Assembly (NCBI GenBank): GCA_963796965.1
Contig: CAWCNS010000016.1
Coordinates: forward strand, 290,673-354,672
Source: Calditrichia bacterium
GTDB taxonomy: Bacteria > Calditrichota > Calditrichia > JAJRVZ01
Direction of reading: 5' to 3'
DNA: 64,000 bases
Shown: positions 23,222-63,625 of the stretch, piece after piece
Numbering within the stretch: the stretch's first letter is position 1
How the letters are laid out: each line of letters starts with the position of its first letter
The notes under the pieces: model-generated
The model's input: the letters and a program-made list of their open reading frames with translations, nothing else
What the model was told of the DNA's origin: nothing
The model's database searches: none
Made by a program: the position numbers and the translations under genes

Positions 23222-24458
23222 ATGATAACACTTATAAAAAACATCGGACAACTGTATAGTGTTGATACCAAGGGTGGTTATGGCGATTATATAAATTATA
23301 GTGACTGTGCAATCGTCCTTGAGAATGACATTATCAGCGATATCTATCAGAATCCTCAACCAAAAATAAGGAATGCTGATCGAACAATCGATGCCGGAGG
23401 GAACACAGTTCTCCCGGGTTTTGTCGATGCCCACACCCATCCGGTTTTTTGGCAGACACGGGAATCTGAATTCATTATGCGTATAAGAGGCATGTCCTAT
23501 GAGGAGATTGCTAAAGCAGGAGGTGGGATCAGGAACAGCTCACGCAGTTTTCAGAAAGCTTCTGAGGCGCAAATCAAAGAGGTTACCCGGGACCGAATCC
23601 GGACTTTTCTTGAATATGGTACAACAACGATTGAAGCTGAAAAGTGGTTATGGCTTGTCTTTGAAAAGTGAGTTAAAAGCATTGCAGATTATCGCTGATC
23701 TCAACAAGGAGCAGGCATTGGAGATGATCCCCACATTTTTGGGTGCCCATGAAGTACCGGATGAATATCGAAACAACCGCAATGAATATATCAATCTGGT
23801 GGTTAATAAAATGATTCCGGAAGTGGCTGAAAAAAAACTGGCCCGCTATTGTGATGTATTCTGCGAAAAAGGTGTTTTTACCCTCACTGAGACCAAATTG
23901 ATTCTTCAAAAGGCTTTGGAACACGGACTCCTGGGAAGAATTCATGCTGATGAATTACATGCCTTTGGAGCAGCTGAGTCTGCAGCTGAAATGAGTACAG
24001 TTACGGCCGATCATCTTGTAAAAACTTCTGACACAGGTATCCGGATGATGGCGGAGGCAGGTGTGATCCCTGTACTATTACCTGCCACTACTTTCTTTCT
24101 AAGGAAAGACGAATATGCACCTGCAAAAAAAATGCTTTCCGCCGGTTGTGAGGTAGCTCTTGCTACAGACTTTAATCCGGGTAGTTCAATGACACAAAGC
24201 ATGCAACTTGTTTGGACTATTGGGGCTCTTAAACTTGGTATGTTGCCCGGAGAATTGTTATGGGCAACTACCTATATTCCGGCAAAGAGCTTACAAATGG
24301 GTCAACAGGTTGGCAGTATTGAAAGAGGAAAACAAGCAGACCTGATTCTCCTGAATATCCCAAACCTTGATTTTCTGGCTTATCATATGGGAATAAATCA
24401 TGTGATGTATACAATTAAAAAGGGATTGATTGTATACAAGCAAGATAATCTGCTATAG
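23222..24458 (+). CDS. hutI: Imidazolonepropionase-like amidohydrolase (HutI family), reading frame interrupted by an apparent 1-bp insertion near 23637
   Basis: Frame 1 carries VDAHTHPVF ... GGGI ... EYGTTTIE; frame +1 continues with KSGYGL ... FLGAHEVPDEY ... ATDFNPGSS. Removing one base near 23637 restores TTIEVKSGYGL, which matches the HutI consensus. Confidence 0.75.
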
Positions 24459-25087
24459 AGTCTACCTAGTTTAAATAATTTATATATTTATGTGGCCAAC
24501 GAAGAATGACAAAAAGTAGTAGTTGCTCCTGGCTGGAACCTGCAAAGATTTATCTGATTCACTTTATACATTGTTATATATATTCCTTCAATTCATTTTC
24601 TTTATATTAAAAATTATTATTAATAGATATACTTTTCTGGCGTCTTTTAATATTATTCTTCAGAGATTTTTGTTGATTTGTGATCTTCCTGACAATTTCA
24701 TACAACCGATCTATATTCTACCCGTATAATAATATAAATTAAAAACAATCCTGCAGTTTTACATATGGTGAAGGTTCTGTCATTCTGTCCCGGATTTCAA
24801 TAGGGATAAGTCATATCATGTAAATGCAATGAAAAAAAATGCGTGGCACGTCACAAGGCACCTGAACGGAGATTGAAAATCATTGATACTAAATCAACAA
24901 AATAAAAGGATAATACGGATCAATTTAGTTATAAAAGGTTAATTGAAATTTATCCATCTTGGGAAGTGTAAATTTAGAAATTGCAGGTATCTTGTGTGAC
25001 TTTATGGCAGATTGTATCTTGACTTTACAGGGGGCATTTGATAACTTCAAATAAAATTAAATCACCTACTTTAACATATGTTTACTT

Positions 25088-26244
25088 ATGACTGATCAAA
25101 AACCAGATAAATATAACGATATAAAAAATGAAATTGGCATTTACGGCGAGTCACCCGAGATTGAGGAAATGTTACGGATCGTTGGTACGGTTGCCCCCAC
25201 GGACCTCTCGGTACTAATAAACGGAGAAAGTGGAACCGGAAAAGAGTTAATCGCTCGTGCCTTACACAACCTGAGTACACGGAAGGATAAACCCCTGATA
25301 TCTGTAAATACCGGAGCAATTCCGGAGGGGATACTAGAAAGTGAGTTGTTTGGCCATGAAAAAGGATCGTTTACAGGAGCTATTGGTCAAAAAAAGGGTA
25401 TTTTGAAGCTGCTGATGGTGGAACGATCTTTTTAGATGAGATTGGAGAGATGCCGCTTAATACACAAGTTAAGTTGTTGAGAGTATTGGAGGAATCGGAA
25501 TTTATGCGTGTTGGAGGTACCCAGTTATTTAAAGTAGATGTTCGTCTGGTAGCAGCAACAAATAAAAATTTGGAAAATGCTGTTAAGAATGGTGAATTTC
25601 GTCAGGATCTTTATTTCCGCCTCAAAGCCATTACAATCGATATTCCCCCACTGAGGCAGCGACGGGAAGACATCCCTCTTTTGGTTTCTTTTTTTACTAA
25701 TAAGTTTGAGGAAGAACAAAATCATTCATTCAAAGGTTTTTCACCCGAAGCTTTACAGCTGATGAAGGAATATGATTGGCCTGGAAATATCAGGGAGTTG
25801 CGGAACTTTGTTGAGACCTCTCTGATATTGAATAAGGGCGAAGTTGTAAACTCTACATACGTCAGTGCTAATTTGAAGCTCAGAGGAGATTCAAGAAATC
25901 TGCCGGTACCGCTAAACCGGCCTCATGATCAGGCAGAGCGTGAATTAATTTATCGCACACTTTGGGCACTTAAACTGGATGTTGATGAGATTAAAAATAT
26001 TTTATTAGAAATTCAGGGACGCAATTTTAGCACAGACAATCTTTCTGACATGTCGTCTATCGGGGAGGATGCAGTTTCGGACCCTGATGGTTTTGAACTA
26101 AAACCGATGACCATTGCTGCAATGGAAAGAGACATGATAAAAGATAATTTACGAAAGTTCGATGGTAATCGAAGAAAGACCGCGCGTGTCCTTCAAATCA
26201 GTGAAAGAACATTATACCGGAAAATAAAAGAATATGGCTTGTAA
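25088..26244 (+). CDS. Sigma-54-dependent transcriptional activator (AAA+ domain plus C-terminal Fis-type HTH, no N-terminal sensory domain), frame broken near 25390
   Basis: Walker A GESGTGKE; GAFTGA-like loop; restoring one G in the run at about 25388-25397 gives [25 protein letters not shown]; C-terminal HTH RKTARVLQISERTLYRKIKEYGL. Confidence 0.8.
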
Positions 26245-26731
26245 ATCACTCATTTTTTCTATCGGATTATTTATCACTATCTATGGTGTCGGATGTGTAT
26301 ATTCATTTGGTGGATCTATTCCTTCTGATGTTACTAAAATAGCAATCCCCTTATTTGATGACAATACTTCCTTCCCGGGGGTGCGGGAAGATCTGACAAA
26401 TTTGGTTATTGATGCATTTATCGCCAACAATATTCTCCAGGTGGTAGGTGAGTCGGAAACGGACCTACTGTTAACAGGAACCATTCTCTCAATAAGACAG
26501 CAAGCAGCGATCATTACAACCGGTGAAGAGGTTGATCAATTTGATGTCTATGTAAATGTGAAGGTTAAGTGTGAGCATTTGAGCTCCGGGAAAGTGTGGT
26601 GGGAGAAAACGCTGCGCCGTTTTGGTACCATGTCTGGGGCGGGGACTCAGGCAGATCAGCAGGAAGCCATAGGTGTGGCGATACTGCAAATAACAGATGA
26701 TATCCTCAATAATACATTAGCTTATTGGTAA
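26234..26731 (+). CDS. LptE-like LPS-assembly lipoprotein (putative)
   Basis: Signal peptide with lipobox-like GVGC followed by the LptE-like pattern YSFGGSIPSDVTKIAIPLFDDNTS; about 165 aa. Confidence 0.5.
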   Translation: MACKSLIFSIGLFITIYGVGCVYSFGGSIPSDVTKIAIPLFDDNTSFPGVREDLTNLVIDAFIANNILQVVGESETDLLLTGTILSIRQQAAIITTGEEVDQFDVYVNVKVKCEHLSSGKVWWEKTLRRFGTMSGAGTQADQQEAIGVAILQITDDILNNTLAYW

Positions 26732-26734
26732 TAG

Positions 26735-28197
26735 ATGATTCAATATATAATATTAAATATATATCTTGTATGTTTGGGTATAATTGGTATATTCTCAATA
26801 GAAGCGCTGTATCTTACCTTCAAATTCTGGCAGGGTTTAAAGAGAGAAGGTTTACAGAAAAAGAACGAATCACTACCAATTGTTACGGTCCAATTGCCGA
26901 TTTATAATGAACAATACGTAGCAAAGAGATTGATACATTCTGTCTGTTCTCTCACATATCCAATCGATAAACTTCAGATCCAGGTGCTCGATGATTCTAC
27001 TGATCAAACCACTCACATATGTAAAGAACAGGTAGATCTGTATAAAAAGAAGGGCTTTGATATTATCTATATACCCCGGGTTGTGCGCATCGGCTTTAAG
27101 GCAGGGGCTTTGCGCGAGGGTCTTGTAAAAGCAAAAGGAGAACTTATAGCAATATTTGATGCAGATTTTATGCCCGGCAAAGATTTTCTCTTAGATACCG
27201 TTCAGCAATTTAATGATCCACTGGTCGGAATGGTGCAGACACGTTGGGACCATCTTAATGAAGATTTCTCGCTTTTGACACGGGCACAGGCATTTGGGCT
27301 TTCTGGTCATTTTGTTGTTGAGCAAAATGGACGTAATAATGCGGGATGTTTTATAAATTTTAATGGAACTGCCGGAGTATGGCGCAAAAAATGCATTGAA
27401 GATGCAGGAAATTGGCAAGATGATACGTTAACAGAGGATTTGGATTTAAGTACAGGGCGCAAATCAAAGGATGGAAATTTTTATATTTGAACGAAATTCC
27501 AACATTATCAGAATTGCCCGCGGAAATCAATGCTCTCAAAGGTCAGCAATATCGCTGGACAAAAGGAGCCATCGAGACGGCTCGAAAAATTTTACCTCTT
27601 CTCTGGAGGAGTGACCACTCTATATTTAAAAAAATTCATGGAACCTTTCATCTTCTTGGGAATCTGGTTTATCCATTCATCTTTTTATTAGCGATATTAA
27701 ATTTACCGATTATACTGATAAAAAATGAAATGCCCCAAACAAGGATATATTTTGTGGTTTTTGCATTATTTATGCTTTCATTTGCATCATCGTTTATATT
27801 TTATTTACTTTCTCAAAAGGCGCTTCATAAAGACTGGAAGACACGACTGTTAATGTTCCCTGTCTTTATGTCCGGTAGCATGGGGTTTTCTATAAATAAT
27901 TCATGGGCAGTTATCCAGGGATTATTAAAAAAACGAACACCTTTCGTTCGTACACCAAAATACCATTTAGTAGGAAAAACGGGTACATTTAAAGGTAAAG
28001 GTTACAGCGCATCCATAGATAAAATGGTGTATGTGGAAATAATAATGGCTGTTTATAGCTGTATTGGTGTGCTTATAGCCATTTATTATCTTGAGTTAGG
28101 CATTCTACCCTTTATGATAATGTTTTTAATTGGATTTTCTATCACTGGATTTTTATCAATAAGTCATTATATTAAGATTAACTATAGGAGAGCCTGA
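26735..28197 (+). CDS. Processive family-2 glycosyltransferase (cellulose/chitin-synthase-like, QxxRW), frame broken near 27450
   Basis: GT2 motifs (DDSTD, DADF, TEDLDLS) in frame 1, then QQYRW and multiple TM helices in the next frame; a 1-bp deletion near 27448-27452 separates them. Confidence 0.8.
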
Positions 28198-29679: not shown

Positions 29680-32600
29680 ATGATTTATAAGCCGCATGCT
29701 ACTTTCCTGATTTTGATTTCCTGCTTGATACTCTTTACTTCTGCTGGTATGGCAGCCGGCTCCCATAATAAAGAGTACCTCATTCGTATCGCAGGTGATC
29801 TTTCGTTAGAAATTGAAAACAGCCAGGCAAAGAATGCACCCGATTTTTTAAAAAAATCACTCCAGTTGGAAGACGGTTCGGAAATTACCAAAATTCTGGA
29901 TGTGCCAGCCTCTTTATTGTCGAGATGGTATCACATATCAATCGCACCCAATTCTCGAAATCAAATCTCAGCCCTTCAGCAAAATCGAGGTATAGAATTG
30001 GTCCAGGAAAACAATCATTTCCAGATACATGGACAGCTGATAAATGATTCCCTCTATTCAAATCAATGGTATCATAACAAGATTGGTGCCTTAGCATCAT
30101 GGGAAAATTATACCCTGAAACCGGAAGCACTTATTGCCATCATAGATACAGGTATTGACTATGAGCATCCGGATTTGGAGGGAAGTTTATGGATTAATGC
30201 AGAGGAGGACCTGAATGGCAATGGTCAATTGGATCCAGGTGACCAGAATAATCTTGATGACGATAACAACGGATATATTGATGATGTGATTGGTTGGGAT
30301 TTTACGGATGCGCCCCGACTAAACAGTGGGGGGGATGATACCAACCCTGATAATGATCCCATGGATGAGTATTCGGGTGGTCATGGTACAAAAATTGCCG
30401 GTATTATTGCTGCCCAAACGAATAATTATCGCGGTATATCGGGGTTGATTCCAGGTGCGAAGGTGATGAATTTGCGCTCGGGTACGGCAGATGGATATCT
30501 GGAAGAAGACGATGTTGCCCGAGCGGTGTTATATGCGATCAATAATGGTGCTAAGATTATTAATATGAGTTTTGGTGACGTGGTTCTTTCAAGATTTCTA
30601 AAAGATGTCATCGCGTATGCGTATTCTAAGGATATCATAATTGTTGCTTCCTCTGGAAATTCAGGCAATGATCAGGTCCATTATCCTTCTGGTCTTGCAG
30701 AAACTATTTCGGTTGGTGCTACAGATCAAAATGATAATCGGGCCAATTTTTCTAATTTCGGTGGAACCATTGACCTGGTGGCACCAGGTGTTGATATTCT
30801 AAGCACAAACCTGGGGGGAGGATATGGCATGGCCGGGGGAACAGCTTTAGCGCGCCTATGGTATCTGCGACAGCTGCTGTATTGATCTCTAAAAATAATG
30901 ATTTATCTGTTGAACAAGTCCGCAACCAATTAAAAACTTCAACTGATGATATCGGTGTACAAGGATGGGAACCCAAATTTGGCTCTGGCAGACTCAATAT
31001 GGAGAAAGCATCTCTAGTAAAGGACGAAAGTAGTCTGGTGATTCACCATCCCCGTACAGGATCGCACAGTGCTGATGACAGCATCGTGATTGTAGCCACA
31101 GCATTGGATCCAAATCTCATTTCACTGGATCTGGCTTATGGATTTGGTGCTGATCCCTTGGAGTGGATTGATATTCTAAAGGACTATGGATATCAAATTA
31201 TTGATGATACACTTGCAATTCTTCCCGTGGGAGTTATTCCGGATACTGTGCTGACATTGCGCTTACGTTTAAATACATGGCAGGGTCAAATTTCAGAAAA
31301 TCGCTCCCTGATAAGCCTGGACAGGACAGGACCAAAAATTGAAAATCACATGGTTGTTCGCCAACTTGATGGGGCTCAATATTCTTATCTTATAAAGTTT
31401 GAATCGGATGATGTTTGTACGGCTGATATCTTTATACGATCTAAGCCAGGTGATCAGGAATTTACCCCTGTTCATCTTTCCTACGAAACAAGAAACCATT
31501 ATTATCTGATTGGCCCAGAAAGAGATAGTGAATATTATTTAAAATTGACAAACTATAGTGGACTGGAAGAAATAGATGATAATAATGGTACTTATTTCCA
31601 ATTAAAATCAATTGATCAAAATATTATCCAAAATGAGTTTATTCAGACTGATCAATCTATTCCATCAGGGTACATTCTCACAGAGCCAATTGATTTTGAT
31701 CAGGATGGTAACTACGAGATCGTCATCTCAGCGTATGACGTAAATCGTAATTTTGGTCCGGTTGTTGTGTTTGAATGGGAAAACGGACAATTTGTCAAAC
31801 AGATGGAAACACCATTTAAAGCAATACCACGTTCCTTTGGTGATGCTGATAGTGATGGCAAACCGGAATTACTTTTGGGATATGGACAGAAAAGTTATTT
31901 ACTGGAATCCACGGGGTCTGATGGCTGGTCTTCACAAATTGTATGGTCAGATACAGGTGCTTTCTGGGCAAGTAGGATCACAGATCTTGACAATGATGGA
32001 ATTAATGAGATTCTGGGCAAGGAAGGACAGGATTTTGTCCTATATGAATCTACGGGAGACAATACTTTCTCAAAGGTTTTTACCTTTGAGAATTCGAGTC
32101 AGGGTAGTAATCAACTTGGTCCTCCACGAACTGAGATTGCTGATCTTGACAATGATGGATATTCTGAAATATATTTTGGTGACTATGATGGTGATATCAT
32201 TTCTTACGAGAATACGGGTAATGATACCTATAATTCGCTTGGATCTATTTCTCTTCCTCTGGAGGATGCAACAAATTTTTTTACTGCGTCAAACCAGACT
32301 TCGCAGGGTCTCCGATCATTGGTTGCTGGATCTCATACAAATACAAATGTAAGTGATGAGCATGAATTCGCTGCTCAATATTGGTCCTATTCAGTGATTC
32401 GGATGAATTCAAATAATTCCTACGAAATAAAGCAGGAAATTCCCGTCTACGGATATGCAGATCTTAGGGATTTCGAAGCAGGGTGCGCTACCGCTACCCT
32501 GAGTGAAAATGGTGAAGAGTTTGTTTTTCTTGCCCCATATCCTGATCTCTACGTTTTTAAAACAGAAGGCGACAGTCTCGTGCCAGTGTGGTATCATGAC

Positions 32601-33857: not shown

Positions 33858-34064
33858 ATGAGAGAACGTTATAGCAGTAGGCCTCTCTATTTCCTGCTAA
33901 ATAAATTCTCGATTTATTTTTTTTGTGAATCCTTCATATATGTAACGGCGCGATTAATCGCGTTGCTTCAAGGATATGAAGCGCATACATAAATTAATTT
34001 TGTTGTGTATCGGAAATAATAGGCGAATCAAAAGTAAAATATTATGGTTAGTAAAAAGGTCTAA

Positions 34065-34942: not shown

Positions 34943-35398
34943 ATGTCAAACCACTCAAATGCCGGCAAAGTGCCCATCATAGAACTTGTTCAGAAAAATG
35001 AGGAAATGGGATTACAGTTTTTTAGAGAATGTATAAATAAAACCAATCAATTTAGTGCACAATACATTCTGAATAAGCTTCTTCACAATTATACGGATCA
35101 TGTGAAAGATCTGATTCAAGAGTTTCAGAAGATTCCAACTGAAGGGATTAACCAAAGACTGGCGTATGATTTGGAAGAGAGATTTTCACCAAAAGATTTG
35201 TGTGTAGAATTTGATCTATCAACACTTACGTTCTTAGAGGCAGCCAGGATTGTAATTCGAATGACAGAGAAAAATATTGATTTCTATAAATATTTTATTG
35301 AAGGAAAACTAAATAAGCCAACTCAAAAGGCACTTAAAAAAATAGTGGCACAGAAAAAGCTTATGTGGATAAACTGCGAGACGAGTATACCAGGTTAA
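34943..35398 (+). CDS. Hypothetical protein
   Basis: 151-aa ORF with no motif I recognise; convergent with dnaA. Confidence 0.4.
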   Translation: MSNHSNAGKVPIIELVQKNEEMGLQFFRECINKTNQFSAQYILNKLLHNYTDHVKDLIQEFQKIPTEGINQRLAYDLEERFSPKDLCVEFDLSTLTFLEAARIVIRMTEKNIDFYKYFIEGKLNKPTQKALKKIVAQKKLMWINCETSIPG

Positions 35399-35435: not shown

Positions 35436-36819
35436 TCATCCAGCGTACTCAAGGCGTTTCTTTAATTCCTGCATTTTCTTTCTGAAAGTTTTATCCTCAT
35501 CCATCCTTTTTACCATCATTTTTTGTGCATAGATAACAGTGGTATGGTCCCGTCCGCCGAAGTGGAGTCCTATGTTGACGGTTGAGTGATTTGTTAATTC
35601 TACGCTAAGATACATTGCCGCCTGGCGAGCCAGGGCCACATGTTGTTTCCGATCCTTTTTCATAAACCGCTCTTCAGGTACATTAAAATGTTTGGATGTC
35701 ATTTGAATGATCTGCTCAATCGTAGAGCTGACGTGATCTTGGCTTTCCAATCTCTGCCACTACGCTTCTCGCCAATTCCAGGGTTGGCTCCGTTTGTGTC
35801 AATAGTACCTGGGCCATCAGCCTGGTTAACGCACCCTCCAGTTCACGGACATTATGAATAAGGTTTACAGCAAGAAATTCAATGATCTCATTGGGGATTT
35901 CCAGATCGTTCTCTTCGCATTTTTTACTTAATATAGCCATGCGGGTTTCCAGATCCGGTGGCTGTATATCTGCAATCAACCCCCATTGAAATCTTGAGAC
36001 AAGTCTTTCTTCTAAAAATCCAAGTTCAGCTATTGGGCGATCCGAAGTAAGTACAATCTGCTTTTCTTTTTGATGAAGTTCATTAAATGTATGAAAAAAC
36101 TCTTCCTGTGTTTTACCTTTATTGTTAAAAAATTGAATATCATCTATCAGGAGCAGGTCGCAAGAACGGTAAAAACTTGAAAACTCAATGGCTTTATTTT
36201 GTTGGATAGAAGATATAAAATGACTGGTAAAACTTTCACTGGACGTATAATATACCTTTAGATCAGGTTTTTTTTGTCTAACCTTATTACCAATTGCTTG
36301 AACAAGGTGGGTTTTTCCCAGACCTGTACCTCCATAAATAATCAGCGGATTGTAATTGGTCTTTCCGGGCGCATCGGCCACGGCGCTGGCAGCGGCATGG
36401 GCAAATCGGGTGCCATCGCCAACAATAAAATTTTCAAAATTATACTGCGCATTTAGATTCGTTTCGATTCGTGGCGATGCTTGTTTGGTGGCAGGAACCG
36501 GTTCTGTCTCAAAGGTATTACCGGTGTATGGCGAGGAGTAGGTTTCGTCTGCCATCACCTCATATTTTATTCCTAAAGAATGACCGGCAACCTGCGCGAC
36601 AGCATTTTGGAGTAGTTTTAAGTAATGATTATCAAGCCACTCACAGAAAAATTTGTTAGGAACCCTGAGAACAATAAAAGTTTCCGTCAGAGAAGTGGCT
36701 TTTAGAGGTGCAAACCAGGTTTGAAAACTACGTGGATTAATGTTTTCTTTAATGATTTCAAGACTTTCATTCCAGATGTGTTCGTACGAAGCCTGGGTGG
36801 CTTCTAAACTATTGGACAT
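35436..36819 (-). CDS. dnaA: Chromosomal replication initiator DnaA, frame broken between about 35716 and 35760
   Basis: Walker A GGTGLGKTHL, Walker B LLIDDIQF, sensor motifs in the 35716-36819 frame; DNA-binding domain IV (ARQAAMYL ... FGGRDHTTV) in the adjacent 35436-35750 frame. Confidence 0.85.
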
Positions 36820-51159: not shown

Positions 51160-51166
51160 ATACCAC

Positions 51167-51195: not shown

Positions 51196-51414
51196 ATTCG
51201 AAACTCTAATCTCTAAATCCTAAATAATTTTCAAATCCCAAGCACCAAACCCCAAATAAATCTCAATCTTCAATAACTAATTTCCAAACAATTTGAACAA
51301 TGGAAATTGGTATCTAATCGGATATTGGTATTTGGGTATTATTTGAAATTTGGTACATGTTATTTGGAATTTATCCTCCACGGGATTAATTAACTATTTC
51401 CATCAAAAAAGTCG

Positions 51415-52279
51415 GTGATTATAAATGTAGATAATAGTTCACCCGATGGTACGAAGGATATGTTGATGAACACACCAACGAAAGTTCCAAAGATATATAT
51501 TTCTACAGCACCAGGTGTTAAAGGAAAAGGAAATAATTTTAAAAACCTATTTGAAGCGGCTGTTGAACTTAATGCAAAAGCCGTTGTTGTTGTCGATGCA
51601 GATTTAAAAAGTATTACCACCGGATGGATAAAATATCTGGCCGAACCTTTATTGGGCCGTTTTGACTATGTGGCTCCCATCTATGCCAGACATAAATATG
51701 ATGGTTCCATCACAAATCATATCGCTTATCCGATGCTAAGAGCATTTTATGGTTTAAGAGTAAGACAACCTATTGGTGGTGATTTCGGATTTTCAGGAAA
51801 TTAGCGCGTGTTTTTCTAACAGAGAAACTCTGGAATGATAAAATAGCTCACTTTGGAATTGATATATGGATGACGACCATTGCCATCGCCAGAAGATTTA
51901 ATGTTTGTCAGGCCTTTTCAGGTACACCTAAAATTCACAATCCGAAAGATCCTGCGAAAGATTTAGGACCAATGTTTACGAAGGTTGTTATCACTACTTT
52001 TGATTTGATGATCGAATTTGAATACCTATGGAAAGATACTTCAGGTATCCAGCCAAGCAATATATATGGTTTTGGTCTTGGCGTTACTGGAAGCCCGCGG
52101 TTTTAACAGTTAATAAAGATGCTCTTTTTGACAGCTTATTTCAAGTTTGGAGCCGTTATGGAAATTTGTGGAAAAAAATCATATCACAACCAGAATTGAT
52201 TGAATTGGGTAAGATTGAGAAAATTGTCAAAACAAAAATTCTATTATCACAGCGATCTTTTGGGCAGAATTCTGTTTGA
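51415..52279 (+). pseudogene. Glycosyltransferase remnant (GT2/GT81, glucosyl-3-phosphoglycerate-synthase-like), N-terminally truncated and split into three frames
   Basis: Pieces 51415-51804, 51870-52106 and 52028-52279 together read VDNSSPDGT ... VVVVDADL ... QPIGGDFGFSGN | ... IAHFGIDIWMTT ... ; a stop codon lies in frame just upstream of 51415 and the expected N-terminal beta1 region is absent. Confidence 0.6.
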
Positions 52280-52504
52280 TTTTGCGATCGCATATCGGAA
52301 CAATGAAATACCTAAGGAAAAAATTATTGAAACTCTGATACCATTCTAACATTCCAAATTCTCTCTTTTGTAAATAAAACCGGTGAATTAGATACAAAAG
52401 AATGTGAAGATTATTTAGAGAGTATGACCGGGTATTTGAATCTAAAAATGCTCCTTTAATAGAGAGATGGGATCAGGATCAAATTAAATTGGGTCATAAA
52501 CTTT

Positions 52505-53401
52505 TTAAAAGAAAGATTTAGCATTGCTTTTAATTTCTGCATATTTATCAGGTTCATTGTCGTTCTCAATTGTCTCTTTATTCTTTTCCTTATCTTTTTT
52601 ATCGATTACAACAATACAGTCTGTTGGGCATTTATCTGTAGGTACCATTGTCTCCGTTCCATATAATTGATAGTTAATTTGAGCCAAATTATCTACTATG
52701 TTGATTTGGCCTTCATCAACAGCACGAACACAGATTCCACAAGCAATACAGGCTTTGGTGCATACTTTCCTGGCAATCTTTGGATTATCTTTATTTTTAC
52801 ATAATATGAAAAGTTTATGATTCTCAGGATGCAGTTCAATGACGCTACGTGGGCAGGCTTCAACACATTTACCACAACCAGTGCATTTGTCCTCTATTAC
52901 AACCGGTAGCCCGTTATTATTCATGTACATCGCATCAAAGGGGCAGGCATCAACACAATCACCATAACCGATACAACCGAATTCGCAGAGTTTTTCTCCC
53001 CCACCGACAATTGAAGCAGCAAGACATGAATGAATTCCTATGTATTCTGCTTTTTTCGCTGTTTCAACCATACCACCTTGACACATGACTCTGGCGATCA
53101 TTCGCTCTCTTTTTTCACTTCTACTCCCATAATTTCAGCGATTTCTTGAAGTGCCTCAGCAGAACAGACAGAGCAAATATCTATTTCAGCGTTCCCATTC
53201 ACCACATTTTCTGCAAAACTCGTGCATCCTGGGAATGCCACATGCACCACAATTTGCTCCTGGAAGTAGTTCACTAATCCGGCTGATACGAGGATCTTCC
53301 TCCACATGAAATATTTTATTTGCAATTGCAAGACCAATAGAGAAGATAAGGCCAAGTCCTCCCATGGCAAGTAGGGCTATAGAAATTGTGCTAATATCCA
53401 T
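52505..53401 (-). pseudogene. RnfB-like Fe-S ferredoxin (membrane anchor, CxxC Fe-S domain, 2x[4Fe-4S]), split into three frames
   Basis: N-terminal TM and PGANCGACG (53186-53401), then FPGCTSFAENVVNGNAEIDICSVCSAEALQEIAEIMGVE (53098-53370), then VMCQGG plus two CxxCxxCxxxCP ferredoxin motifs (52505-53101). No other rnf genes are adjacent. Confidence 0.7.
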
Positions 53402-54073: not shown

Positions 54074-55037
54074 ATGATAAATATTTTTAACCATTCCCTG
54101 ATGATAACAGGATTTGTATTTGTGATGATGCTGGTAATCGAGTATGTCAACGTACTCAGCAACGGAGAATGGCAACAAAGGCTGGCTCAGCATAAATGGG
54201 GACAATACATTCTAGCTGCACTTACTAGGCGCCGTTCCAGGTTGTTTAGGTGCATTTATAGTGGTGGCGATGTATTCACATAGGATATTAACAGTCGGTG
54301 CTGTTGTTGCGGCGATGATTGCCACTTGTGGAGACGAGTCATTTGTTATGCTGGCCATGATTCCAAAAGAAGCTATATATATTCATGCACTACTTTTTGT
54401 TTTGGGAATTATTGCCGGGGCATTGACGGATATGATTTTTCGAGAGAAAGTTTCGCTACATCCATCAGGCTGTGATGACTTAAAGGTACATATTGATGAA
54501 AATTGTAATTGTTTTCCCAGTGGCCAAATAATACAGCAATGGAAGGAATATTCCGCTTTCAGGATTATCTTAACGGTAGGATTATTGGTATTCATTCTTG
54601 CAATTATTACCGGACAGATGGGTCCAAGCACCTGGAACTGGATAAGGATTACGATTCTGTTTGTCTCCGCAATTTCACTTTTCATTGTCGTTACTGTCCC
54701 TGAGCATTTTCTTGAAGAACATCTATGGGAACATGTGGCAAAGAAACATATTCCCCGTGTTTTTCTATGGACATTCGGTGCACTTATTTTAATGCATGTA
54801 TTGGTTGATTATCTACATTTGGAAGGTATGATTCGTGAAGGCAAATGGATCGTCCTTTTTGTAGCCTGTCTTGTCGGCTTAATCCCCGAATCCGGACCTC
54901 ACTTGATTTTTGTAACTCTCTACGCGCAAGGAACCATTCCCTTCAGCATTTTACTGGCCAGTTCCATTGTGCAGGATGGACATGGAATGTTACCCATGTT
55001 AGCCCAGTCGAGAAGATCATTCATATTCATTAAGTAA
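54074..55037 (+). CDS. Polytopic membrane permease (putative heavy-metal/ArsP-like exporter family), frame broken near 54229
   Basis: Removing one base near 54229 joins the two ORFs as ...AALTGAVPGCLGAFIVVAMYSHRILT...; multiple TM helices and an ATCGDESF motif. Confidence 0.55.
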
Positions 55038-56533: not shown

Positions 56534-56621
56534 GATCACTGATGATACGAAAAAAAATCTCTATCGAGGATCTTGTAATGAAGTTACCTGAGTCAATAAG
56601 TTAATTAAAGGAGGAATTAAT

Positions 56622-57271
56622 ATGGCTTTTATTCAGGAAAATGATCGGATTGAGATTCAAAATAAATTCGCTACAATGCAGCAACCGGTAAAAATCATAA
56701 ATTTTACTCAGGAAATAGAATGCACTTATTGTAGGGAGACTCGTCAGTTAATGGAGGAAGTTGCCGCTCTGTCAGATAAAATAAGCCTTGAGGTCTACAA
56801 TTTCATTATTGACAAAGAACAAGCCAACAAATATCAGATTGACAAAATACCGGCTACAATAATTATGGGGGAAATGGATTATGGCATTCGATTTTATGGT
56901 ATTCCCTCCGGGTATGAGTTTAGCACTTTGCTTGAAGATATTGTTATGGTATCTAAAAAAGACTCCGGGCTGGCTGATGATTCCAAGAAAATACTTTCAG
57001 AGATTCCTAAGCCCTTGAATTTACAGATCTTTGTTACGCCGACCTGTCCATATTGTCCTGCAGCGGTATATTTGGCGCATCAGCTTGCTTTTGAGAGCGA
57101 CCTGATTCGTGGAGAAATGATCGAGGCGACTGAATTTCCCCATTTATCACATCAAGTATAATGTCGGGAGCGGTACCGAAAGTGGTAATAAATGATACTG
57201 TCGAATTTGAAGGTGCCCTTCCTGAAAAGCAATATTTAGATAAGGTAATAGAAGCCACGAATAAGATATAA
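56622..57271 (+). CDS. Glutaredoxin-like protein-disulfide oxidoreductase (two thioredoxin-fold units, CTYC and CPYC), frame broken near 57150-57160
   Basis: Paralogous to the intact gene at 60805-61443; the C-terminal segment ...MSGAVPKVVINDTVEFEGALPEKQYLDKVIEATNKI is in a different frame and ends at the TAA at 57269-57271. Confidence 0.7.
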
Positions 57272-57436
57272 ACAATGGATTTGATTCGGTGAATAAAGTT
57301 ATTAAGCGAATCAAATTTATTTTACAGCGAGTATTTTTAATCTACAAATAAATTGTGAATTGGTGAAAAGGATAATTTAGATCAAATAGTGAGTTTTAAC
57401 ATTAGTAGATAAAGTTGCATGGGTGAAATTAATCTG

Positions 57437-59264
57437 ATGGAAACAAAATATTTTAAAAATAAGGAAGACTTAACTATTGCCATTATAGGCAGTGGTGGTG
57501 AGGGGTCATCTCTGCTGGTGAAATTTTACTTCGCGCCGGTTCTCAAAATGGTTTATATGGAATGATGTTAAAGAGCTATGGACCGCAAATTCGTGGTGGT
57601 GAAACTATGGCCCAAATTCGAATGAAAAATTCACTGGTTTTATCACAAGGTGATCTAATCGATGCGTTAATTATTCTAAATTGGGATCATTACTATCGCT
57701 TTGAGGAGGAGATATCTCTAGATGACAGGACAGTAATCTTTCATGATAACATTGAAATGCTTCCCCCAGACTTGTCATTTCCCCAAAAGATTCAATTTTT
57801 AGGGGTGCCGTTTACTGAAATTGCAAAAAAAACGTCAGGTACATCGAAATCCAAAAATCTTGTCGCACTTGGTTTTCTATCAGGTTGGTTTGGGTTGGGA
57901 AAAAAGGTTTTGAACGCGAGATTCAGCGACAATTTACCGGAAAAAACAAGGACATAATTTATGGTAACTTAAAATCTTTCAAAAAAGGGCTAGAATTGGC
58001 TGAAAGCAACAAAGCCGCAACACCTTTTGATTGGTCAAGTAAGAACCACAATCCAAAAATGATTTTAACCGGCAATGAGGCGATATCTTTAGGGTCTTTA
58101 TTTCGCTGGGGTGCAATTCTATGCTGGTTATCCTATTACGCCTGCCAGTGAAATTATGGAGTGGATGGCAAATGAGCTGCCAAAGTTTGAAGATATTTTC
58201 ATACAGACAGAAGATGAAATTACGGCAATTACAATGGCCATCGGAGCTTCATTTGCCGGAGCTAAATCAATGACTGCCACCTCTGGTCCAGGACTGTCTC
58301 TTATGACAGAAGCCATTGGTCTGGCTGCTATGGCAGAATTACCTGTTGTTATTGTGGATGTACAACGAGTAGGACCGAGTACCGGAATTCCAACAAAAAC
58401 AACCCAGGCAGACCTCTTTCATGCTGTTTTTGGCGGTCACGGCGATTATCCGCGCGTAGTTTTAGCCCCCGTAAACGTAGCCGATGCGATTACTATTGCT
58501 GTACATGCCTTTTATCTATCGGAAAAATATCAATTACCTGTGATTATACTAAGTGACCAATTTATAGGCCAACGTCTTGAGATTATTCCCCAGGTTGATT
58601 TTAAAGCAATGCAATCAATGGTTATAAATCGATCTCTTCCTTCAATCGAAGAATTACATAACTATAGCAGGTATAAAATGACTCCAAACGGTGTTTCACC
58701 GCTATCGAAACCAGGAATTAAAAACGGTATGTATACTGCATATGGCATTGAACACGATGAATTGAGTTTGCCAACATCTTCCTCTAATATCCAGAAACGG
58801 ATGAACAGGAAACGTTTGAAGAAAAATCAGACAATTTTGCAGCAGGAATCCGACATATTACTTCGTCTCGGTAATATGAATCCCAGGATTGGTATCCTTA
58901 GCCTGGGGATCTACCACAGGTGCTATTCAAGAAGCTGATTTCTTCACTCCTGGAAGATGATTATAACATCGGTACTATCGTACCACGCCAATTGAAACCA
59001 TTACCTACCAATCAAATTCAGTCATGGGTGAACCACTTAGAAGAATTGATTATTTTTGAGTTATCCGAGGGACAATTTTATACCTATTTAAAGAGTGAAA
59101 TAATATTGCCCAGAAAAACAGGTCTATTTGCTCGTCCGGGAGTGAACCCATTTACAGTGAATGAAATAATAAAGGCAATTATAGAAAGTAAATTAAAATG
59201 GAAATCTATTCAACAAAAGATTACAAAGCAATTTAAAACCGGTATGGTGCCCTGGTTGTGGTGA
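57437..59264 (+). pseudogene. korA: 2-oxoacid:ferredoxin oxidoreductase alpha subunit (KorA-like, gamma-alpha fusion), at least 4 frame disruptions
   Basis: ATG at 57437; IAIIGSGGEG then, after restoring one G at about 57514-57518, VISAGEILLRAGSQNGLYGMMLKSYGPQIRGGE; further pieces 57885-58151, 58111-58938 (YAGYPITPASEI, TSGPGLSLM) and 58920-59264. Confidence 0.7.
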
Positions 59265-60053
59265 TTATGCAATTTTAAATTCACTGTACCAGGCATTAGC
59301 CAAATTCAGCTACCACCAGAGGAGATTGCAATCATATCCGGAATTGGATGTTCCAGCCGTTTGCCGGGATATGTAAAAACTTACGGATTTAATAGCATTC
59401 ATGGTCGGGCATTACCTGTGGCTCAAGGTGTAAAATTAGCCCATCCGCAAACAACTGTAATTGCGGTTGCCGGTGACGGTGACGCTTTTAGCATTGGTGG
59501 TGATCATTTACCACATACTGCCCGGCGCAATATTGATCTAACTTATATCATAATGGACAATGGCATTTACGGAATGACCAAAGGGCAAAGCTCTCCTACA
59601 ACTGAAGAAAGCCAAAAGACAAAAACCACCCCCTATGGGATTATGGAGGAACAAATTAATCCTATTAAAATAGCATTGAGTTATGGAGTTTCTTTTATAG
59701 CTCGCGGATTTTCGGGAAATGTTAAGCAGATCGTTGATCTTATTATTCAAGGGATAAATCATCCGGGATTTTCGTTCATCCAAATATTAAGCCCATGTGT
59801 AACATTTATGGGGAAAGAACAATACGATATAATTCGCTCTCTGTCCAATGATCTTGGACAAGATTATGATGAAACCTCAGTTGAGGATGCATGGAATATT
59901 AGTAATGAAGTAGATATGATTTCCATGGGAGTGATCTACCGGGTAAAAAAACCCATTTATTGTGAGCGGTTGCATAATGTAGAAAAAATGGCTAGGACAC
60001 CGGGAAATATTAATTTTGATTCTCTTTTGAAGCGATATTTGGTTGCCTCATGA
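59199..60053 (+). pseudogene. korB: 2-oxoacid:ferredoxin oxidoreductase beta subunit (KorB-like, TPP-binding), 2 frame disruptions near 59232 and 59305
   Basis: MEIYSTKDYKAI (frame A), VWCPGCGDYAILNSLYQALAKFSY (frame B), EEIAIISGIGCSSRLPGYVKTYGFNSIHGRALP ... GDGD ... (frame C, 59361-60053). Confidence 0.65.
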
Positions 60054-60103
60054 ATAGATTTTAATTAGTCAGGGGTAAAAGTAAATATAAAGAAAGATAT
60101 AAT

Positions 60104-60739
60104 ATGCCTAAAACAAAGCCTTTTGATAAATATTGGAAAGAATATGAGGGGTGGTTCGCTGAACATCATCATGTCTATCTAACCGAAGTTGACGCAATTC
60201 ATCATTTTATTCCCAGGGATAGAAAAGGAATAGAAATTGGAATAGGAACGGGTAGATTTGCTATGCCATTTGGTATTAAAGAAGGCATAGAACCGTCCCA
60301 CGCAATGAAAAAGTTTGCAGAACGAAAAGGTTTAAAAGTTTACGATGGTGTGGCTGAAGAGTTACCGCTTTCAGACCACTCCTATGATTTTGCATTGATG
60401 GTAACCACTATTTGTTTTGTTGATGATATGCTAAAATCCTTCCTGGAAGTTAATAGAATTCTAAAAAGGGAAGGAATCTTTATTATTGGGTTGGTAGATA
60501 AAAATAGCCCATTGGGTAAAGAATACGAGAAGATAAAAGACCAGAATAAATTTTACAGAGAAGCTTTGTTTTATTCAACGGACGAAGTCCTTGATTACTT
60601 GAGAAAGGCACGATTTAAAATAGTTAAAATCATCCAGACTGTTTTTGGCACATTGAATACGGTTTCAGAGATTCAGCCATTTATAGAGGGGTATGGCGAG
60701 GGTGGTTTCGTGATAATTAAGGCAAAAAAACTTGTTTAA
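60104..60739 (+). CDS. Class I SAM-dependent methyltransferase
   Basis: Motif I IEIGIGTGRFA and post-I acidic residue; 211 aa. Confidence 0.75.
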   Translation: MPKTKPFDKYWKEYEGWFAEHHHVYLTEVDAIHHFIPRDRKGIEIGIGTGRFAMPFGIKEGIEPSHAMKKFAERKGLKVYDGVAEELPLSDHSYDFALMVTTICFVDDMLKSFLEVNRILKREGIFIIGLVDKNSPLGKEYEKIKDQNKFYREALFYSTDEVLDYLRKARFKIVKIIQTVFGTLNTVSEIQPFIEGYGEGGFVIIKAKKLV

Positions 60740-60804
60740 AATAAAAATGTTATATGTACAATGCTACTATTTTAAACTTAGAGTAAGAGTGAAAGGAGTG
60801 CATC

Positions 60805-61443: not shown

Positions 61444-61851
61444 TATATAGTAAACATTATGAAAAATTGCCTCATGAATAGTTTTCTAACCTAATTAATA
61501 CCGAAAAAAATGTATTGTATAATAACCGGCTGTCTTAAGTATTCTTTTTTAACAAATATATTTTCTTTCTTGCGACAGTTCCTTCTCAACAGTTGCGATA
61601 TTGCAACAATTAACTAGATTACTCCTTCAATATCTAATTTCCCCTTTCTTCTAATCCAATAATTATCAATAAATTAGCTGCCCTGTTTTTATTCTGGCCT
61701 GTGAATTGCATTATTTCTAAATAAAAGGAAGAATTTCAGCTGATGAATTATAGAATTCTATCTTTCTTCTTTATTAAACGGTAAATGATAGGTAAAGATC
61801 GAAATGATGAGATTAAAACTGATATAAATTGCAACTAAGGAAATTCAGGTT

Positions 61852-62798
61852 ATGTTAACATTTGGCCCAGTACCATCCAGACGCCTAGGGCGCAGCATGG
61901 GAATTAATAACATTCCTCCAAAGATATGTACCTATTCATGTGTCTATTGTCAGGTGGGCAGCACGATAAAGATGCGCATCAAGCGACAGATTTTTTTTGA
62001 ACCGGAAGAGATATTACAGGAAGTAAAAAAGAAAATTGAAAAGGTACATGAAGTTGGGGAAAACATTGATTATTTAACCTTTGTTCCCGATGGTGAACCG
62101 ACATTGGATATAAATCTCGGTCGGGAAATAGATCTCCTGAAGCCCTTGGGTATCAAAATGGGGGTGATAACTAATGCTTCCCTCATTTGGCGCGAAGATG
62201 TCAGGAATGAATTAAATAAAAGCTCGATTGGGTTTCTTTAAAAGTTGACTCTATCAAAGAAGACGTTTGGCGCAGGATAAACCGTCCTCACAAATCTTTG
62301 CAATTACCTTTGATTCTTGAAGGAATGATTGAATTCGCGCGGGAATATCAGGGAAAATTGGTAACCGAGACAATGCTAGTCAAAGGATTGAATGACAGTG
62401 AAATTGAATGTAAACAGGTTAGCGATTTTTTAAATCAAATCAGTCCTTCCACTACTTACATATCAATTCCAACAAGACCACCTGCTGAAAACTGGGTACA
62501 ACCTCCAAGCGAGGAAGTGCTCAATCAGACCTATCAAATATTCAGTAAAATTCATGACCATGTCGAGTTTCTGGTTGGATATGAAGGTAATGAATTTACC
62601 TTAACCGGAGATGTGGCGGAAGATCTGTTGAATATTACCGCTGTTCACCCCATGCGTGAAGAGGCGGTGAAAGAATTTTTTTCAAAAGCAAAGGCAGATT
62701 GGTCTATTATTCAAAAATTAATAAATAAGAATCTGCTTATGGAATCGGAATACGATAGGAAAAAGTATTACATGCGCAGGCTTCATAGGAGAAATTAA
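61852..62798 (+). CDS. Radical SAM protein (CxxxCxxC, Fe-S oxidoreductase family), frame broken between about 62230 and 62300
   Basis: PVPSRRLGRSMGINNIPPKICTYSCVYCQ in 61852-62241; C-terminal half continues in the 62298-62798 frame. Confidence 0.65.
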
Positions 62799-62824
62799 TT
62801 TGATCTACGGAAGAATATTTTATA

Positions 62825-63625
62825 ATGATGACACTGCATACTCAGGTAAGTATAATGAATTTTGATCAAAAGAGAATCAATCCAGGGGGAAATAGCCTGG
62901 TCGATGTCAAACTCACTGTCATATATGATATCTATCCTGTGATGAGCAACCTGCAACCGGGACGCGGTTTTGCCTGTGTGGCAGAAGTTGGAGAAACTAC
63001 CGTGCTTTTCGATACAGGTAGTGATGGAGCTATTCTCTTAGCAAATATGAATAGGCTGGGAATAGAACCACGAAGCTATCCAATTGATCCTGATTTCACA
63101 TAATCGCTGTGGTCATATTGGTGGACTTGATGATTTTCTGATAGAGAATCCAAAAGTATCAGTATATGTGCCGCAATCGTTTCCAGATTTAGTAATTGAA
63201 AACATTGAAAAAACAGGAGCAAAAGTCAACCGAGTTGCTGCTGCTAAGGAACTTCGAGCAAATGTTTTCACTCTAGGTGAATTTGCTGGCATTTTTAAAG
63301 AGCAGGCTATGGCCTTGCGGACATCAAAAGGTATCGTGGTGGTAACCGGCTGTGCACATTCTGGAGTATCAAGATTTTGCATAAAGCAAAGACTTTTTTC
63401 CCAGATGAACCTCTTTATCTGTTTTTAGGTGGATTTCATTTTTCTGGTTTGAGTGACTCAGAGATATCAAATATTGTAAAAAACTTCCAAAAGCTTAAGG
63501 TCCAAAATGTTGCCCCCTGTCATTGTACTGATGAAGCAGGCCGGCTACTTTTTCAGAAGGCTTATGGTGAAAACTATATTGAAATGGGCGTGGGGGGTGA
63601 GATAAAAATTCCATTTACTAATTGA
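62825..63625 (+). pseudogene. MBL-fold metallo-hydrolase, split into three frames
   Basis: LFDTGSDG ... (62825-63103), ISHNRCGHIGGLDDF ... VVTGCAHSGV (63084-63428), C-terminal segment (63377-63625); shifts near 63085-63103 and 63377-63428. Confidence 0.6.

What the first reader, a model, noticed from the sequence alone, without database searches (positions are those of the whole stretch)
23222..63625. About 20 single-base frame disruptions with a strong positional gradient, including essential dnaA
Reading frames of hutI (about 23637), the sigma-54 activator (about 25390, in an A/G homopolymer), GT2 (about 27450), S8 peptidase (about 30843), dnaA (35716-35760), GT remnant (x2), rnfB-like (x2), permease (about 54229), PDO (about 57155), korA (x4, one in a G-run at about 57515), korB (x2), radical SAM and MBL hydrolase (x2) are each restored by a 1-bp indel. 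None occur in the first 23 kb despite 3-5 kb ORFs there; 5 occur in 23-51 kb; about 15 in 51-64 kb. Because dnaA is essential and is broken, most of these are more plausibly assembly or base-calling indels than real pseudogenes, and the gradient suggests coverage or polishing varying along the contig. The alternative is genuine gene decay concentrated in the redox cluster. Every functional call in the second half depends on which is true.
Basis: seen in the sequence. Interest (0 to 1): 0.6.

Follow-up and report, generated by a model that had tools for sequence, protein, structure and literature searches.

The report
Assembly indel errors breaking genes
The many broken genes in this stretch, including the essential replication gene dnaA, are almost certainly one-base sequencing or assembly errors in a metagenome contig rather than real gene decay, so the genes should be read as intact.

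Summary
I find 27 one-base frame disruptions (16 missing bases, 11 extra bases). PDO has 2, korA 5, the "GT remnant" at least 6, and there is one hidden site in a small gene beside dnaA.

The distribution is patchy, not a smooth gradient:
- 1-23.2 kb: 0
- 23.6-35.7 kb: 6
- 35.8-51.3 kb: 0
- 51.4-63.4 kb: 21

Homopolymer density is the same in all four stretches.

Every broken gene becomes a full-length open frame of ortholog length after single-base repair. There is no in-frame stop in 5,980 codons, and Pfam domains become whole.

One site could be tested directly. A separate Logan contig of run ERR11523668, 99.87% identical over 3.8 kb, lacks the extra base at window 35725 and reads dnaA straight through. 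Four other Logan contigs covering 9.6 kb of unbroken stretches show no indel difference.

Close relatives carry intact hutI, the sigma-54 activator, GT2, S8 peptidase and DnaA.

Verdict: consensus indel errors of an error-prone, probably long-read, assembly, clustered in poorly supported patches. The cause of the patchiness is inferred, not shown. Interest is low; the practical value is that the genes should be annotated as intact.

The parts
23637..23637 (+). hutI (imidazolonepropionase): one extra base (GAAG[C]TGAAAAG), not in a homopolymer
   Evidence: The two fragments match PDB HutI 2bb0 residues 7-150 and 146-416. Repair gives 411 aa with Amidohydro_1 positions 1-339/345. The relative's gene is 410 aa.
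25389..25398 (+). sigma-54 activator: one base missing in the A7 run (or the adjoining G3)
   Evidence: The L110 ortholog aligns in frame 2 up to GQKKG and in frame 1 from [11 protein letters not shown]. The frameshift-aware alignment calls a deletion at 25389. Repair gives 385 aa, the ortholog length.
27450..27451 (+). GT2 glycosyltransferase: one base missing between TEDLDLS and YRAQIKGW
   Evidence: Repair gives 487 aa, the ortholog length.
30835..30843 (+). S8 peptidase: one base missing at GGA-AC_-AGC (catalytic GTSFSAP motif), next to a G5 run
   Evidence: Frame 1 matches the ortholog GGGY.MA.GT and frame 3 matches SFSAPMV. Repair gives 1392 aa against 1398 aa in L110.
35355..35359 (+). 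Small gene 34943..35398: hidden frameshift in an A-run (window A5, Logan A4, homology fits A6)
   Evidence: There is a gap between window and L118 here. The C-terminal match to relatives (AYV..L..EY.RL) lies in another frame. Repair to A6 gives 156 aa, as in the closest relative's contig.
35725..35725 (-). dnaA: one extra base (CGTA[G]AGCTG on the + strand), not in a homopolymer
   Evidence: Predicted at 35724 from the L110 ortholog. Logan contig L118 lacks exactly this base and reads ...RSRQLTIEQII... with an open frame of 250 aa. About 35 relatives at 80-92% identity are all intact at 458-459 aa.
51405..51410 (+). GT2-family gene ('GT remnant'): one base missing in an A6 run
   Evidence: Frameshift-aware alignment to P0252, P0256 and P0261.
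51798..51800 (+). GT2-family gene: one base missing (GFSG|KLARVF)
   Evidence: All five orthologs call a deletion at 51797-51803.
52090..52102 (+). GT2-family gene: one base missing (GVTG|KPAVL)
   Evidence: Four orthologs call a deletion at 52090-52102. The fifth, P0261, aligns only to 52010.
52205..52214 (+). GT2-family gene: one extra base; the position is only known within 52200-52276
   Evidence: Three of five orthologs call an insertion at 52205-52214. The overlap of the two stop-to-stop frames runs from 52200 to 52276.
52339..52348 (+). GT2-family gene: one base missing
   Evidence: Four orthologs. The permissible window is 52331-52346.
52413..52428 (+). GT2-family gene: one base missing near the C-terminus
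   Evidence: Four orthologs. The C-terminal motif F.E.KPYLLEQW matches FESKNAPLIERW in the next frame.
53110..53115 (-). RnfB-like Fe-S protein: one base missing in a run of six (A6 on the coding strand)
   Evidence: Four orthologs call a deletion at 53111-53123. Manual reading.
53236..53236 (-). RnfB-like protein: one extra base inside the FeS motif (CGACG[.]FPGC)
   Evidence: Pfam FeS is split into positions 1-12 and 11-32. After repair it is whole, 1-32/33 at 51 bits. Orthologs call an insertion at 53233-53236.
54224..54224 (+). ArsP_2 permease: one extra base (CTT[A]CTAGG)
   Evidence: Manual reading. ArsP_2 coverage rises from profile positions 58-335 (110.9 bits) to 16-335 (127.4 bits) after repair. 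No ortholog alignment was available.
57153..57166 (+). Protein disulfide oxidoreductase: two extra bases 13 nt apart (57153 and 57166)
   Evidence: Four orthologs each call two insertions. The KYNV motif lies in the middle frame. The second Thioredoxin_3 domain becomes whole after repair.
57502..57505 (+). korA: one base missing in a G4 run (GSGGEG|VISAGE)
   Evidence: Three orthologs call a deletion at 57507. Reading.
57900..57905 (+). korA: one base missing in an A6 run
58104..58104 (+). korA: one extra base (SLGSLF|AGVQFYAGYP)
   Evidence: All three orthologs call an insertion at 58101.
58896..58897 (+). korA: one extra base (CC)
   Evidence: All three orthologs call an insertion at 58897. 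The LAWGSTTGAIQEA segment lies in the middle frame.
58937..58937 (+). korA: one extra base
   Evidence: Orthologs call an insertion at 58937-58958.
59225..59227 (+). korB: one base missing (MEIYSTKDYK|SNLKPVWCPGCG)
   Evidence: Repair gives 285 aa.
59300..59301 (+). korB: one base missing (YQALA|QIQLPPEE)
   Evidence: Four orthologs call a deletion at 59300-59315.
62218..62221 (+). Radical SAM gene: one base missing in an A4 run
   Evidence: The L002 ortholog changes frame at 62216-62226. Radical_SAM rises from 40 bits (profile 3-94) to 64.6 bits (3-160) after repair.
63071..63071 (+). MBL-fold hydrolase: one extra base
   Evidence: L002 ortholog. Manual reading.
63366..63370 (+). MBL-fold hydrolase: one base missing (CAHSGV|.KILHKAK)
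   Evidence: L002 ortholog, deletion called at 63370. Reading.

Best explanation
The 27 frame disruptions are one-base consensus errors of the assembly that produced this contig. The contig is 369,512 bp, from an uncultured Calditrichia-like bacterium, and is held by NCBI and ENA. It was most likely built from error-prone long reads with incomplete polishing. In the organism the affected genes are intact and functional. These are hutI, the sigma-54 activator, GT2, S8 peptidase, a small hypothetical gene, dnaA, a second GT2-family gene, the RnfB-like gene, the ArsP_2 permease, PDO, korA, korB, the radical SAM gene and the MBL hydrolase.

The errors cluster because consensus quality varies along the contig. 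They fall in patches of about 1-3 kb (51.4-54.2, 57.15-59.3 and 62.2-63.4 kb) and a sparser stretch at 23.6-35.7 kb. The likely cause is locally low or conflicting read support, or patchy polishing.

What is shown:
- the indels exist in the sequence;
- the dnaA indel is absent from a separate assembly of a run holding the same population;
- relatives carry intact genes;
- the repaired frames are clean.

What is inferred: that all other sites are errors of the same kind, and why they cluster.
For: 1. Direct test at dnaA. Logan contig L118 (run ERR11523668) matches window 32356-36189 with 3 mismatches and 2 one-base gaps. One gap is the extra base at 35725. Without it dnaA reads ...RSRQLTIEQII..., exactly as the orthologs do.
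2. Four other Logan contigs cover 9,585 bp of unbroken stretches (10030-11369, 22003-23124, 38379-42670, 46506-49336). They show 10 mismatches and no gap.
3. After one-base repair all 14 genes are open over ortholog length: hutI 411/410, sigma-54 activator 385/385, GT2 487/487, S8 1392/1398, DnaA 460/458.
4. There is no in-frame stop in 5,980 repaired codons, although 4.6% of random substitutions there would make one. With even 3-5 substitutions per indel, 3.7-6.2 stops would be expected, giving P(0) = 0.025-0.002.
5. Pfam domains split between fragments become whole and score higher after repair. This holds for FeS, ArsP_2, Thioredoxin_3, POR, Radical_SAM and Amidohydro_1.
6. DnaA is intact in all listed relatives at 80-92% identity, about 35 of them. 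A cluster of DnaA boxes lies just upstream of the gene.
7. Deletions are enriched at homopolymers (8/16 against 26%, p=0.03). This is the known error mode of nanopore consensus, which causes frameshifts at gene calling and depends on coverage (PMC9262707).
8. The broken protein fragments exist only on this one contig among about 15 billion proteins.
Against: - Only one listed site (dnaA) and one new site were tested against independent sequence. No independent DNA was obtained for any of the 21 sites at 51-64 kb.
- The Logan contigs are not an error-free truth set. At the A-run 35355-35359 Logan has A4, the window has A5, and homology fits A6. Logan's BioY protein differs from the window's at its C-terminus, where the window has the full Pfam match.
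- The Logan run differs from the window by about 0.1% in substitutions, so it may sample a slightly different strain.
- Eleven events are insertions outside homopolymers, which is not the classic nanopore signature.
- The sequencing platform and read depth of the source assembly are unknown to me.
- The 5' end of the GT2-family gene (51290-51347) cannot be restored by single-base edits. It could be a real truncation.
Confidence: 0.9

Rival explanations
1. Genuine gene decay. The redox and glycosyltransferase cluster at 51-64 kb, and perhaps some genes at 23-36 kb, are real pseudogenes in this strain, recently inactivated by one-base indels.
For: - The density at 51-64 kb is very high (1.7 per kb), and no independent sequence was obtained there.
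- The 5' end of the GT2-family gene next to the tRNA cluster is not recoverable.
- None of four intact proteins of this stretch has an exact copy in Logan, against seven of about thirteen elsewhere. So the stretch may be strain-specific.
Against: - There are no nonsense codons and no deletions larger than one base in 5,980 repaired codons.
- Intact genes (TrxR, methyltransferase, second PDO) lie between the broken ones.
- The same kind of lesion hits the essential dnaA, where an independent contig shows it is not real.
- Eight frameshifts in 2.2 kb of PDO-korAB without a single stop is not what neutral decay produces.
Confidence: 0.05
2. Mixed-strain consensus. The contig collapses two or more co-existing strains. 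Where the strains differ, or only a minor strain carries the region, the consensus caller emits spurious indels. This is still an artefact, but its cause is heterogeneity rather than simple low depth or missing polishing.
For: - Logan contigs of the same population differ from the window by about 0.1% in substitutions.
- One A-run has three different lengths.
- The errors come in kilobase-scale patches separated by clean stretches of about 2.9 kb.
- Short-read contigs of relatives break inside tRNA-Cys just upstream of the dense cluster.
Against: - No read-level data are available.
- The tetranucleotide signature of 51.4-64 kb is close to the rest of the window (r = 0.83-0.89 against 0.87-0.93 among the other chunks).
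- Substitution divergence in the compared stretches is low and even.
Confidence: 0.25
3. Recoding. The frameshifts are real and are bypassed by programmed ribosomal frameshifting or transcriptional slippage, so full-length proteins are still made.
For: A few sites lie in A6-A7 runs (25389, 51405, 53110, 57900), where slippage is conceivable.
Against: - Orthologs carry no frameshift at any of these positions.
- Most sites have no slippery sequence, and 11 are extra bases outside runs.
- The dnaA site is absent from independent sequence.
- 27 recoding sites in 40 kb would have no precedent that I know of (my own knowledge).
Confidence: 0.01

Closest known systems
Indel-induced frameshifts in long-read (Oxford Nanopore) assemblies and MAGs. 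Sereika et al. 2022 (PMC9262707) describe them. The IDEEL test and frameshift-correction tools such as proovframe, both cited there, address the same problem.
   Same: - One-base indels in the consensus truncate predicted proteins.
- Deletions favour homopolymers.
- Severity depends on coverage and polishing.
- Genes are restored by single-base correction against homologs.
- MAGs can be deposited with many such errors.
   Different: - Here 11 of 27 events are insertions outside homopolymers.
- The errors are strongly patchy within one contig rather than spread evenly.
- The platform of the source assembly was not established.
Pseudogene-rich genomes undergoing reductive evolution, such as Mycobacterium leprae and recently host-restricted symbionts (my own knowledge)
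   Same: Many neighbouring genes are interrupted by frameshifts.
   Different: Real decay also leaves nonsense codons, larger deletions and eroded conserved residues, and it spares essential genes such as dnaA. None of that is seen here. The dnaA lesion is contradicted by independent sequence.
Transcriptional slippage at long poly(A) tracts that rescues frameshifted genes in endosymbionts (my own knowledge)
   Same: Some sites lie in A6-A7 runs.
   Different: Most sites are not in such tracts, the tracts are shorter than those reported to slip efficiently, and orthologs are in frame.

Membership tests
Consensus indel artefact of an error-prone (long-read) assembly | The lesion is absent from independently derived sequence of the same population | tested here: met
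   The dnaA extra base at 35725 is absent from Logan contig L118. Only this listed site and one new site could be tested. The A-run site disagrees in both sequences.
Consensus indel artefact of an error-prone (long-read) assembly | All lesions are one-base indels whose repair restores a full-length, ortholog-like open frame | tested here: met
   14 genes and 27 edits, with lengths matching orthologs and whole Pfam domains. Exception: the 5' end of the GT2-family gene is unresolved.
Consensus indel artefact of an error-prone (long-read) assembly | Bias towards homopolymer runs | tested here: inconclusive
   Deletions are at runs of 4 or more in 8/16 cases against a 26% background (p=0.03). Insertions are at 2/11.
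Consensus indel artefact of an error-prone (long-read) assembly | Error density follows read depth or polishing coverage | not testable with these tools
   No reads or depth were available. The only indirect hint is that exact copies of intact proteins occur in Logan for 0 of 4 genes in 51-64 kb, against 7 of about 13 elsewhere.
Consensus indel artefact of an error-prone (long-read) assembly | The source assembly was made from long, error-prone reads | not testable with these tools
   I know only that the contig is 369,512 bp long and is held by NCBI and ENA. The run accession was not found in the paper library.
Genuine pseudogenes (gene decay) | Other signs of relaxed constraint: nonsense codons, multi-base deletions, lost conserved motifs | tested here: not met
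   No stop in 5,980 repaired codons, where 3.7-12 would be expected for 3-10 substitutions per indel. The motifs that could be read are kept.
Genuine pseudogenes (gene decay) | Lesions are reproducible in independent data | tested here: not met
   The dnaA lesion is absent in L118. The sites at 51-64 kb were not tested.
Programmed frameshifting or slippage recoding | The frameshift site is conserved in orthologs and has a slippery motif | tested here: not met
   Orthologs are in frame at every site. Most sites lack any run.

The most novel reading that the evidence does not exclude
Some of the 21 disruptions at 51.4-63.4 kb might be real. On that reading, a redox, 2-oxoacid:ferredoxin oxidoreductase and glycosyltransferase cluster just downstream of a tRNA/tmRNA cluster is being inactivated by one-base indels in a sub-population of this Calditrichia-like bacterium, recently enough that no stop codons have yet accumulated. 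No independent sequence was obtained for this stretch, so this is not formally excluded.
Probability: 0.04. Interest if true: 0.3.

Novelty: not a real feature. Interest (0 to 1): 0.08.

Why it matters
It matters for annotation, not for biology. Every functional call in the second half of the window should treat these genes as intact. That applies to dnaA, hutI, the sigma-54 activator, the S8 peptidase, korAB, the PDO/TrxR redox genes, the RnfB-like protein, the ArsP_2 permease, the radical SAM and MBL pair, and both glycosyltransferases.

The deposited MAG will look less complete and more pseudogene-rich than the organism is. Hidden errors near gene ends also exist, such as the one at 35355-35359. 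The contig therefore needs re-polishing or homology-guided frameshift correction before any comparative or metabolic inference. Nothing here would surprise a specialist.

Tried and rejected
1. A candidate extra frameshift at 44.1 kb. One ORF of L042 spans frames 1 and 3 there. Rejected, because the syntenic relative L110 has two genes, a 59-aa ferredoxin and a 396-aa FAD protein.

2. A third MBL event at 63447 from the frameshift-aware alignment. Rejected as an end-of-alignment artefact, because the next frame has a stop within about ten codons.

3. A foreign island or chimeric join after the tRNA cluster.
   - Prompted by TrxR's best GTDB match being only 67% and korA's best JGI match only 65%. 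Relatives' contigs also end inside tRNA-Cys.
   - Not supported. The tetranucleotide signature is like the rest of the window. The methyltransferase 60104..60739 has relatives at 90% or more in JGI, ENA, NCBI and Logan. No tRNA-derived direct repeat was found. The lineage simply seems poorly represented among genomes.

4. A chimeric query of repaired junction peptides, meant to find near-identical intact proteins for 51-64 kb. It returned only 27 distant hits and not even the window's own fragments. It says nothing about absence. It did supply GT and RnfB orthologs.

5. Exact look-ups of the dnaA fragment, the TrxR and the 151-aa ORF found nothing on record. The contig of P0001 (92% DnaA) has no retrievable DNA.

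6. A search of the paper library for the run accession found nothing.

Full report
**What the window is**

The window is part of a 369,512-bp contig held by NCBI and ENA. It comes from an uncultured bacterium related to Calditrichia. The best named DnaA and GWxTD matches are Calditrichia/Calditrichales MAGs. The contig is not among the GTDB species representatives searched.

Close relatives exist as metagenome contigs:
- DnaA at 92% identity (P0001), plus about 35 proteins at 80-84%.
- A syntenic ENA contig, L110, covering the equivalent of window 25-45 kb.
- Another, L114, covering 36.7-50.9 kb at about 78% DNA identity.

**Checking the observation**

ORF maps show the fragmentation directly. 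Fragments of one gene carry consecutive parts of one Pfam domain. Examples are FeS 1-12 then 11-32, and Thioredoxin_3 up to about position 72 then 49-76. POR, POR_N and PFOR_II lie on separate korA pieces. Homologs from other genomes align to the window with frame changes at the stated places. The two hutI pieces match PDB imidazolonepropionase 2bb0 residues 7-150 and 146-416.

I wrote a frameshift-aware protein-to-DNA alignment. On dnaA it called a single extra base at 35724. I then ran it with up to five orthologs per gene. With manual reading of the junctions this gives 27 events.

| Stretch | Events |
|---|---|
| 23.6-35.7 kb (6) | 23637 I, 25389-95 D, 27450 D, 30842 D, 35355-59 D, 35725 I |
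| 51.4-63.4 kb (21) | 51405-10 D, 51800 D, 52092 D, ~52208 I, ~52342 D, ~52425 D, 53110-15 D, 53236 I, 54224 I, 57153 I, 57166 I, 57502-05 D, 57900-05 D, 58104 I, 58897 I, 58937 I, 59227 D, 59301 D, 62218-21 D, 63071 I, 63368 D |

I = one extra base; D = one missing base.

**Distribution**

- There are no events in 1-23.2 kb, where the ten large ORFs have full-length Pfam domains.
- There are none in 35.8-51.3 kb, where gene lengths equal those of L110 and L114 and Logan contigs show no gaps.
- Rates are 0, 0.47, 0 and 1.69 per kb in the four stretches.
- P(no event in the first 23.2 kb) = 5e-6, and P(at least 21 of 27 in 12.4 kb) = 9e-11.
- Within 51-64 kb the events form three patches separated by two clean stretches of about 2.9 kb each.
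- Homopolymer density is the same everywhere, so sequence context does not explain the pattern.

The distribution is therefore a set of patches rather than a gradient.

**Are they real?**

The decisive result concerns dnaA. The CoaE protein next to dnaA has an exact copy on a Logan contig of run ERR11523668, and that contig, L118, could be fetched. L118 aligns to window 32356-36189 at 99.87%, with three mismatches and two one-base gaps.

One gap is the window's extra base at 35725, one position from the site predicted in advance from orthologs. Without that base the Logan contig encodes ...GKPRSRQLTIEQIIQMT..., colinear with the relatives, and its dnaA frame is open for 250 aa up to the contig end.

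The other gap is in an A-run at 35355-35359 in the small neighbouring gene. The window has A5 and Logan has A4. The C-terminal homology to relatives, and the 156-aa length of the closest relative's gene, fit A6. This is a hidden frameshift in the window. It also warns that the Logan contigs are not error-free.

Four further Logan contigs of the same run cover 9,585 bp of unbroken stretches. They show 10 mismatches and no gap. Indel disagreements therefore occur only where reading frames are broken.

**Indirect evidence for the other sites**

- After the 27 single-base edits all 14 genes are open frames of ortholog length.
- Pfam domains become whole and score higher (against 14 and 15).
- The 5,980 repaired codons hold no stop codon, although 4.6% of random substitutions there would create one. 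Real decay that had accumulated 27 indels should have left several: 3.7-12 are expected for 3-10 substitutions per indel, giving P(0) of 0.025 or less. The substitution-to-indel ratio is my own assumption from the pseudogene literature.
- Intact genes (TrxR, methyltransferase, second PDO) sit between broken ones.
- The broken fragments are singletons of this one contig among about 15 billion proteins.
- A cluster of DnaA boxes lies just upstream of dnaA. That fits a working initiator gene at or near the origin.

**Error type**

Deletions are moderately enriched at homopolymers (8/16 against 26%, p=0.03) and insertions are not. Homopolymer indels that cause frameshifts at gene calling, with a strong dependence on coverage and polishing, are a documented property of nanopore assemblies and MAGs (PMC9262707).

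The mixed insertion and deletion pattern, and the kilobase-scale patches, suggest stretches of poor consensus. Low depth, conflicting strains or unpolished segments could each cause that. A purely systematic homopolymer problem would not.

I could establish neither the platform nor the depth. The only hint is weak. Exact copies of intact proteins are found in Logan for none of four genes in 51-64 kb, against seven of about thirteen elsewhere.

**Alternatives**

- Real gene decay of the redox cluster is not formally excluded, because no independent DNA was obtained for 51-64 kb. It conflicts with the absence of stops and larger lesions, and with the identical kind of lesion in dnaA being demonstrably spurious.
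- The unresolved 5' end of the GT2-family gene is the only feature that might be a real truncation.
- An island or chimeric join after the tRNA/tmRNA cluster was considered and not supported.
- Recoding is excluded by the in-frame orthologs.

**Verdict**

This is an artefact of a known kind. The genes should be read as intact, and the contig needs re-polishing or frameshift correction. Confidence is about 0.9 that the large majority of the 27 events are errors. Interest is low.

Noticed in passing
window 36820-37352: Five DnaA-box-like sites lie in the intergenic region just upstream of dnaA: a perfect TTATCCACA at 36847, and one-mismatch copies at 37018, 37035, 37046 and 37189. This is a candidate oriC or dnaA promoter region. 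The window-wide count of such matches is not above chance (31 against 22 expected); only the local cluster stands out.
   Followed up: partly
window 59181-59261: The repaired korA frame runs about 21 aa beyond where orthologs end and overlaps the korB start (ATG at 59198). This may hide one more indel just before the true korA stop.
   Followed up: no
window 51290-51347: The 5' end of the GT2-family gene cannot be recovered. Homology to orthologs starts at 51347, about 15 residues into the GT domain. The stretch upstream has repeated ATTTGG-like motifs and an ATG followed by a stop after five codons. It holds either several more errors or a real truncation next to tRNA-Leu.
   Followed up: partly
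window 49507-51160; L114 and L115 ends: A cluster of tRNA-Lys, tmRNA (tag ADYDYAMAA), tRNA-Gly, tRNA-Cys and tRNA-Leu. The relative's contigs L114 and L115 both end inside tRNA-Cys (window 50887-50937), just upstream of the dense error cluster.
   Followed up: partly
window 7045-7626 (BioY) and 12456-12821: Logan proteins of the same run differ from the window here. P0280 has a different BioY C-terminus, where the window's version has the full Pfam match. P0284 differs by one residue (L to S in an ArsR-like HQLRLL motif). The Logan contigs therefore carry their own errors or strain variants.
   Followed up: partly
window 24459-25087: There are 629 bases without an evident gene between hutI and the sigma-54 activator, against 118 bases in the syntenic relative L110.
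   Followed up: no
window 55562-63625; L002: The gene order TrxR, protein disulfide oxidoreductase, methyltransferase-like, radical SAM and MBL-fold hydrolase is shared with locus L002, a MAG labelled Eubacteriales (TrxR 67% identical). TrxR-PDO is also shared with L003 and L004. This looks like a conserved thiol-redox module found in several phyla.
   Followed up: no
window 43939-45311: A 59-aa ferredoxin gene followed by a 398-aa FAD-dependent oxidoreductase looks like a frameshifted single gene when compared with a fused ORF in L042. It is two genes in the close relative L110.
   Followed up: yes
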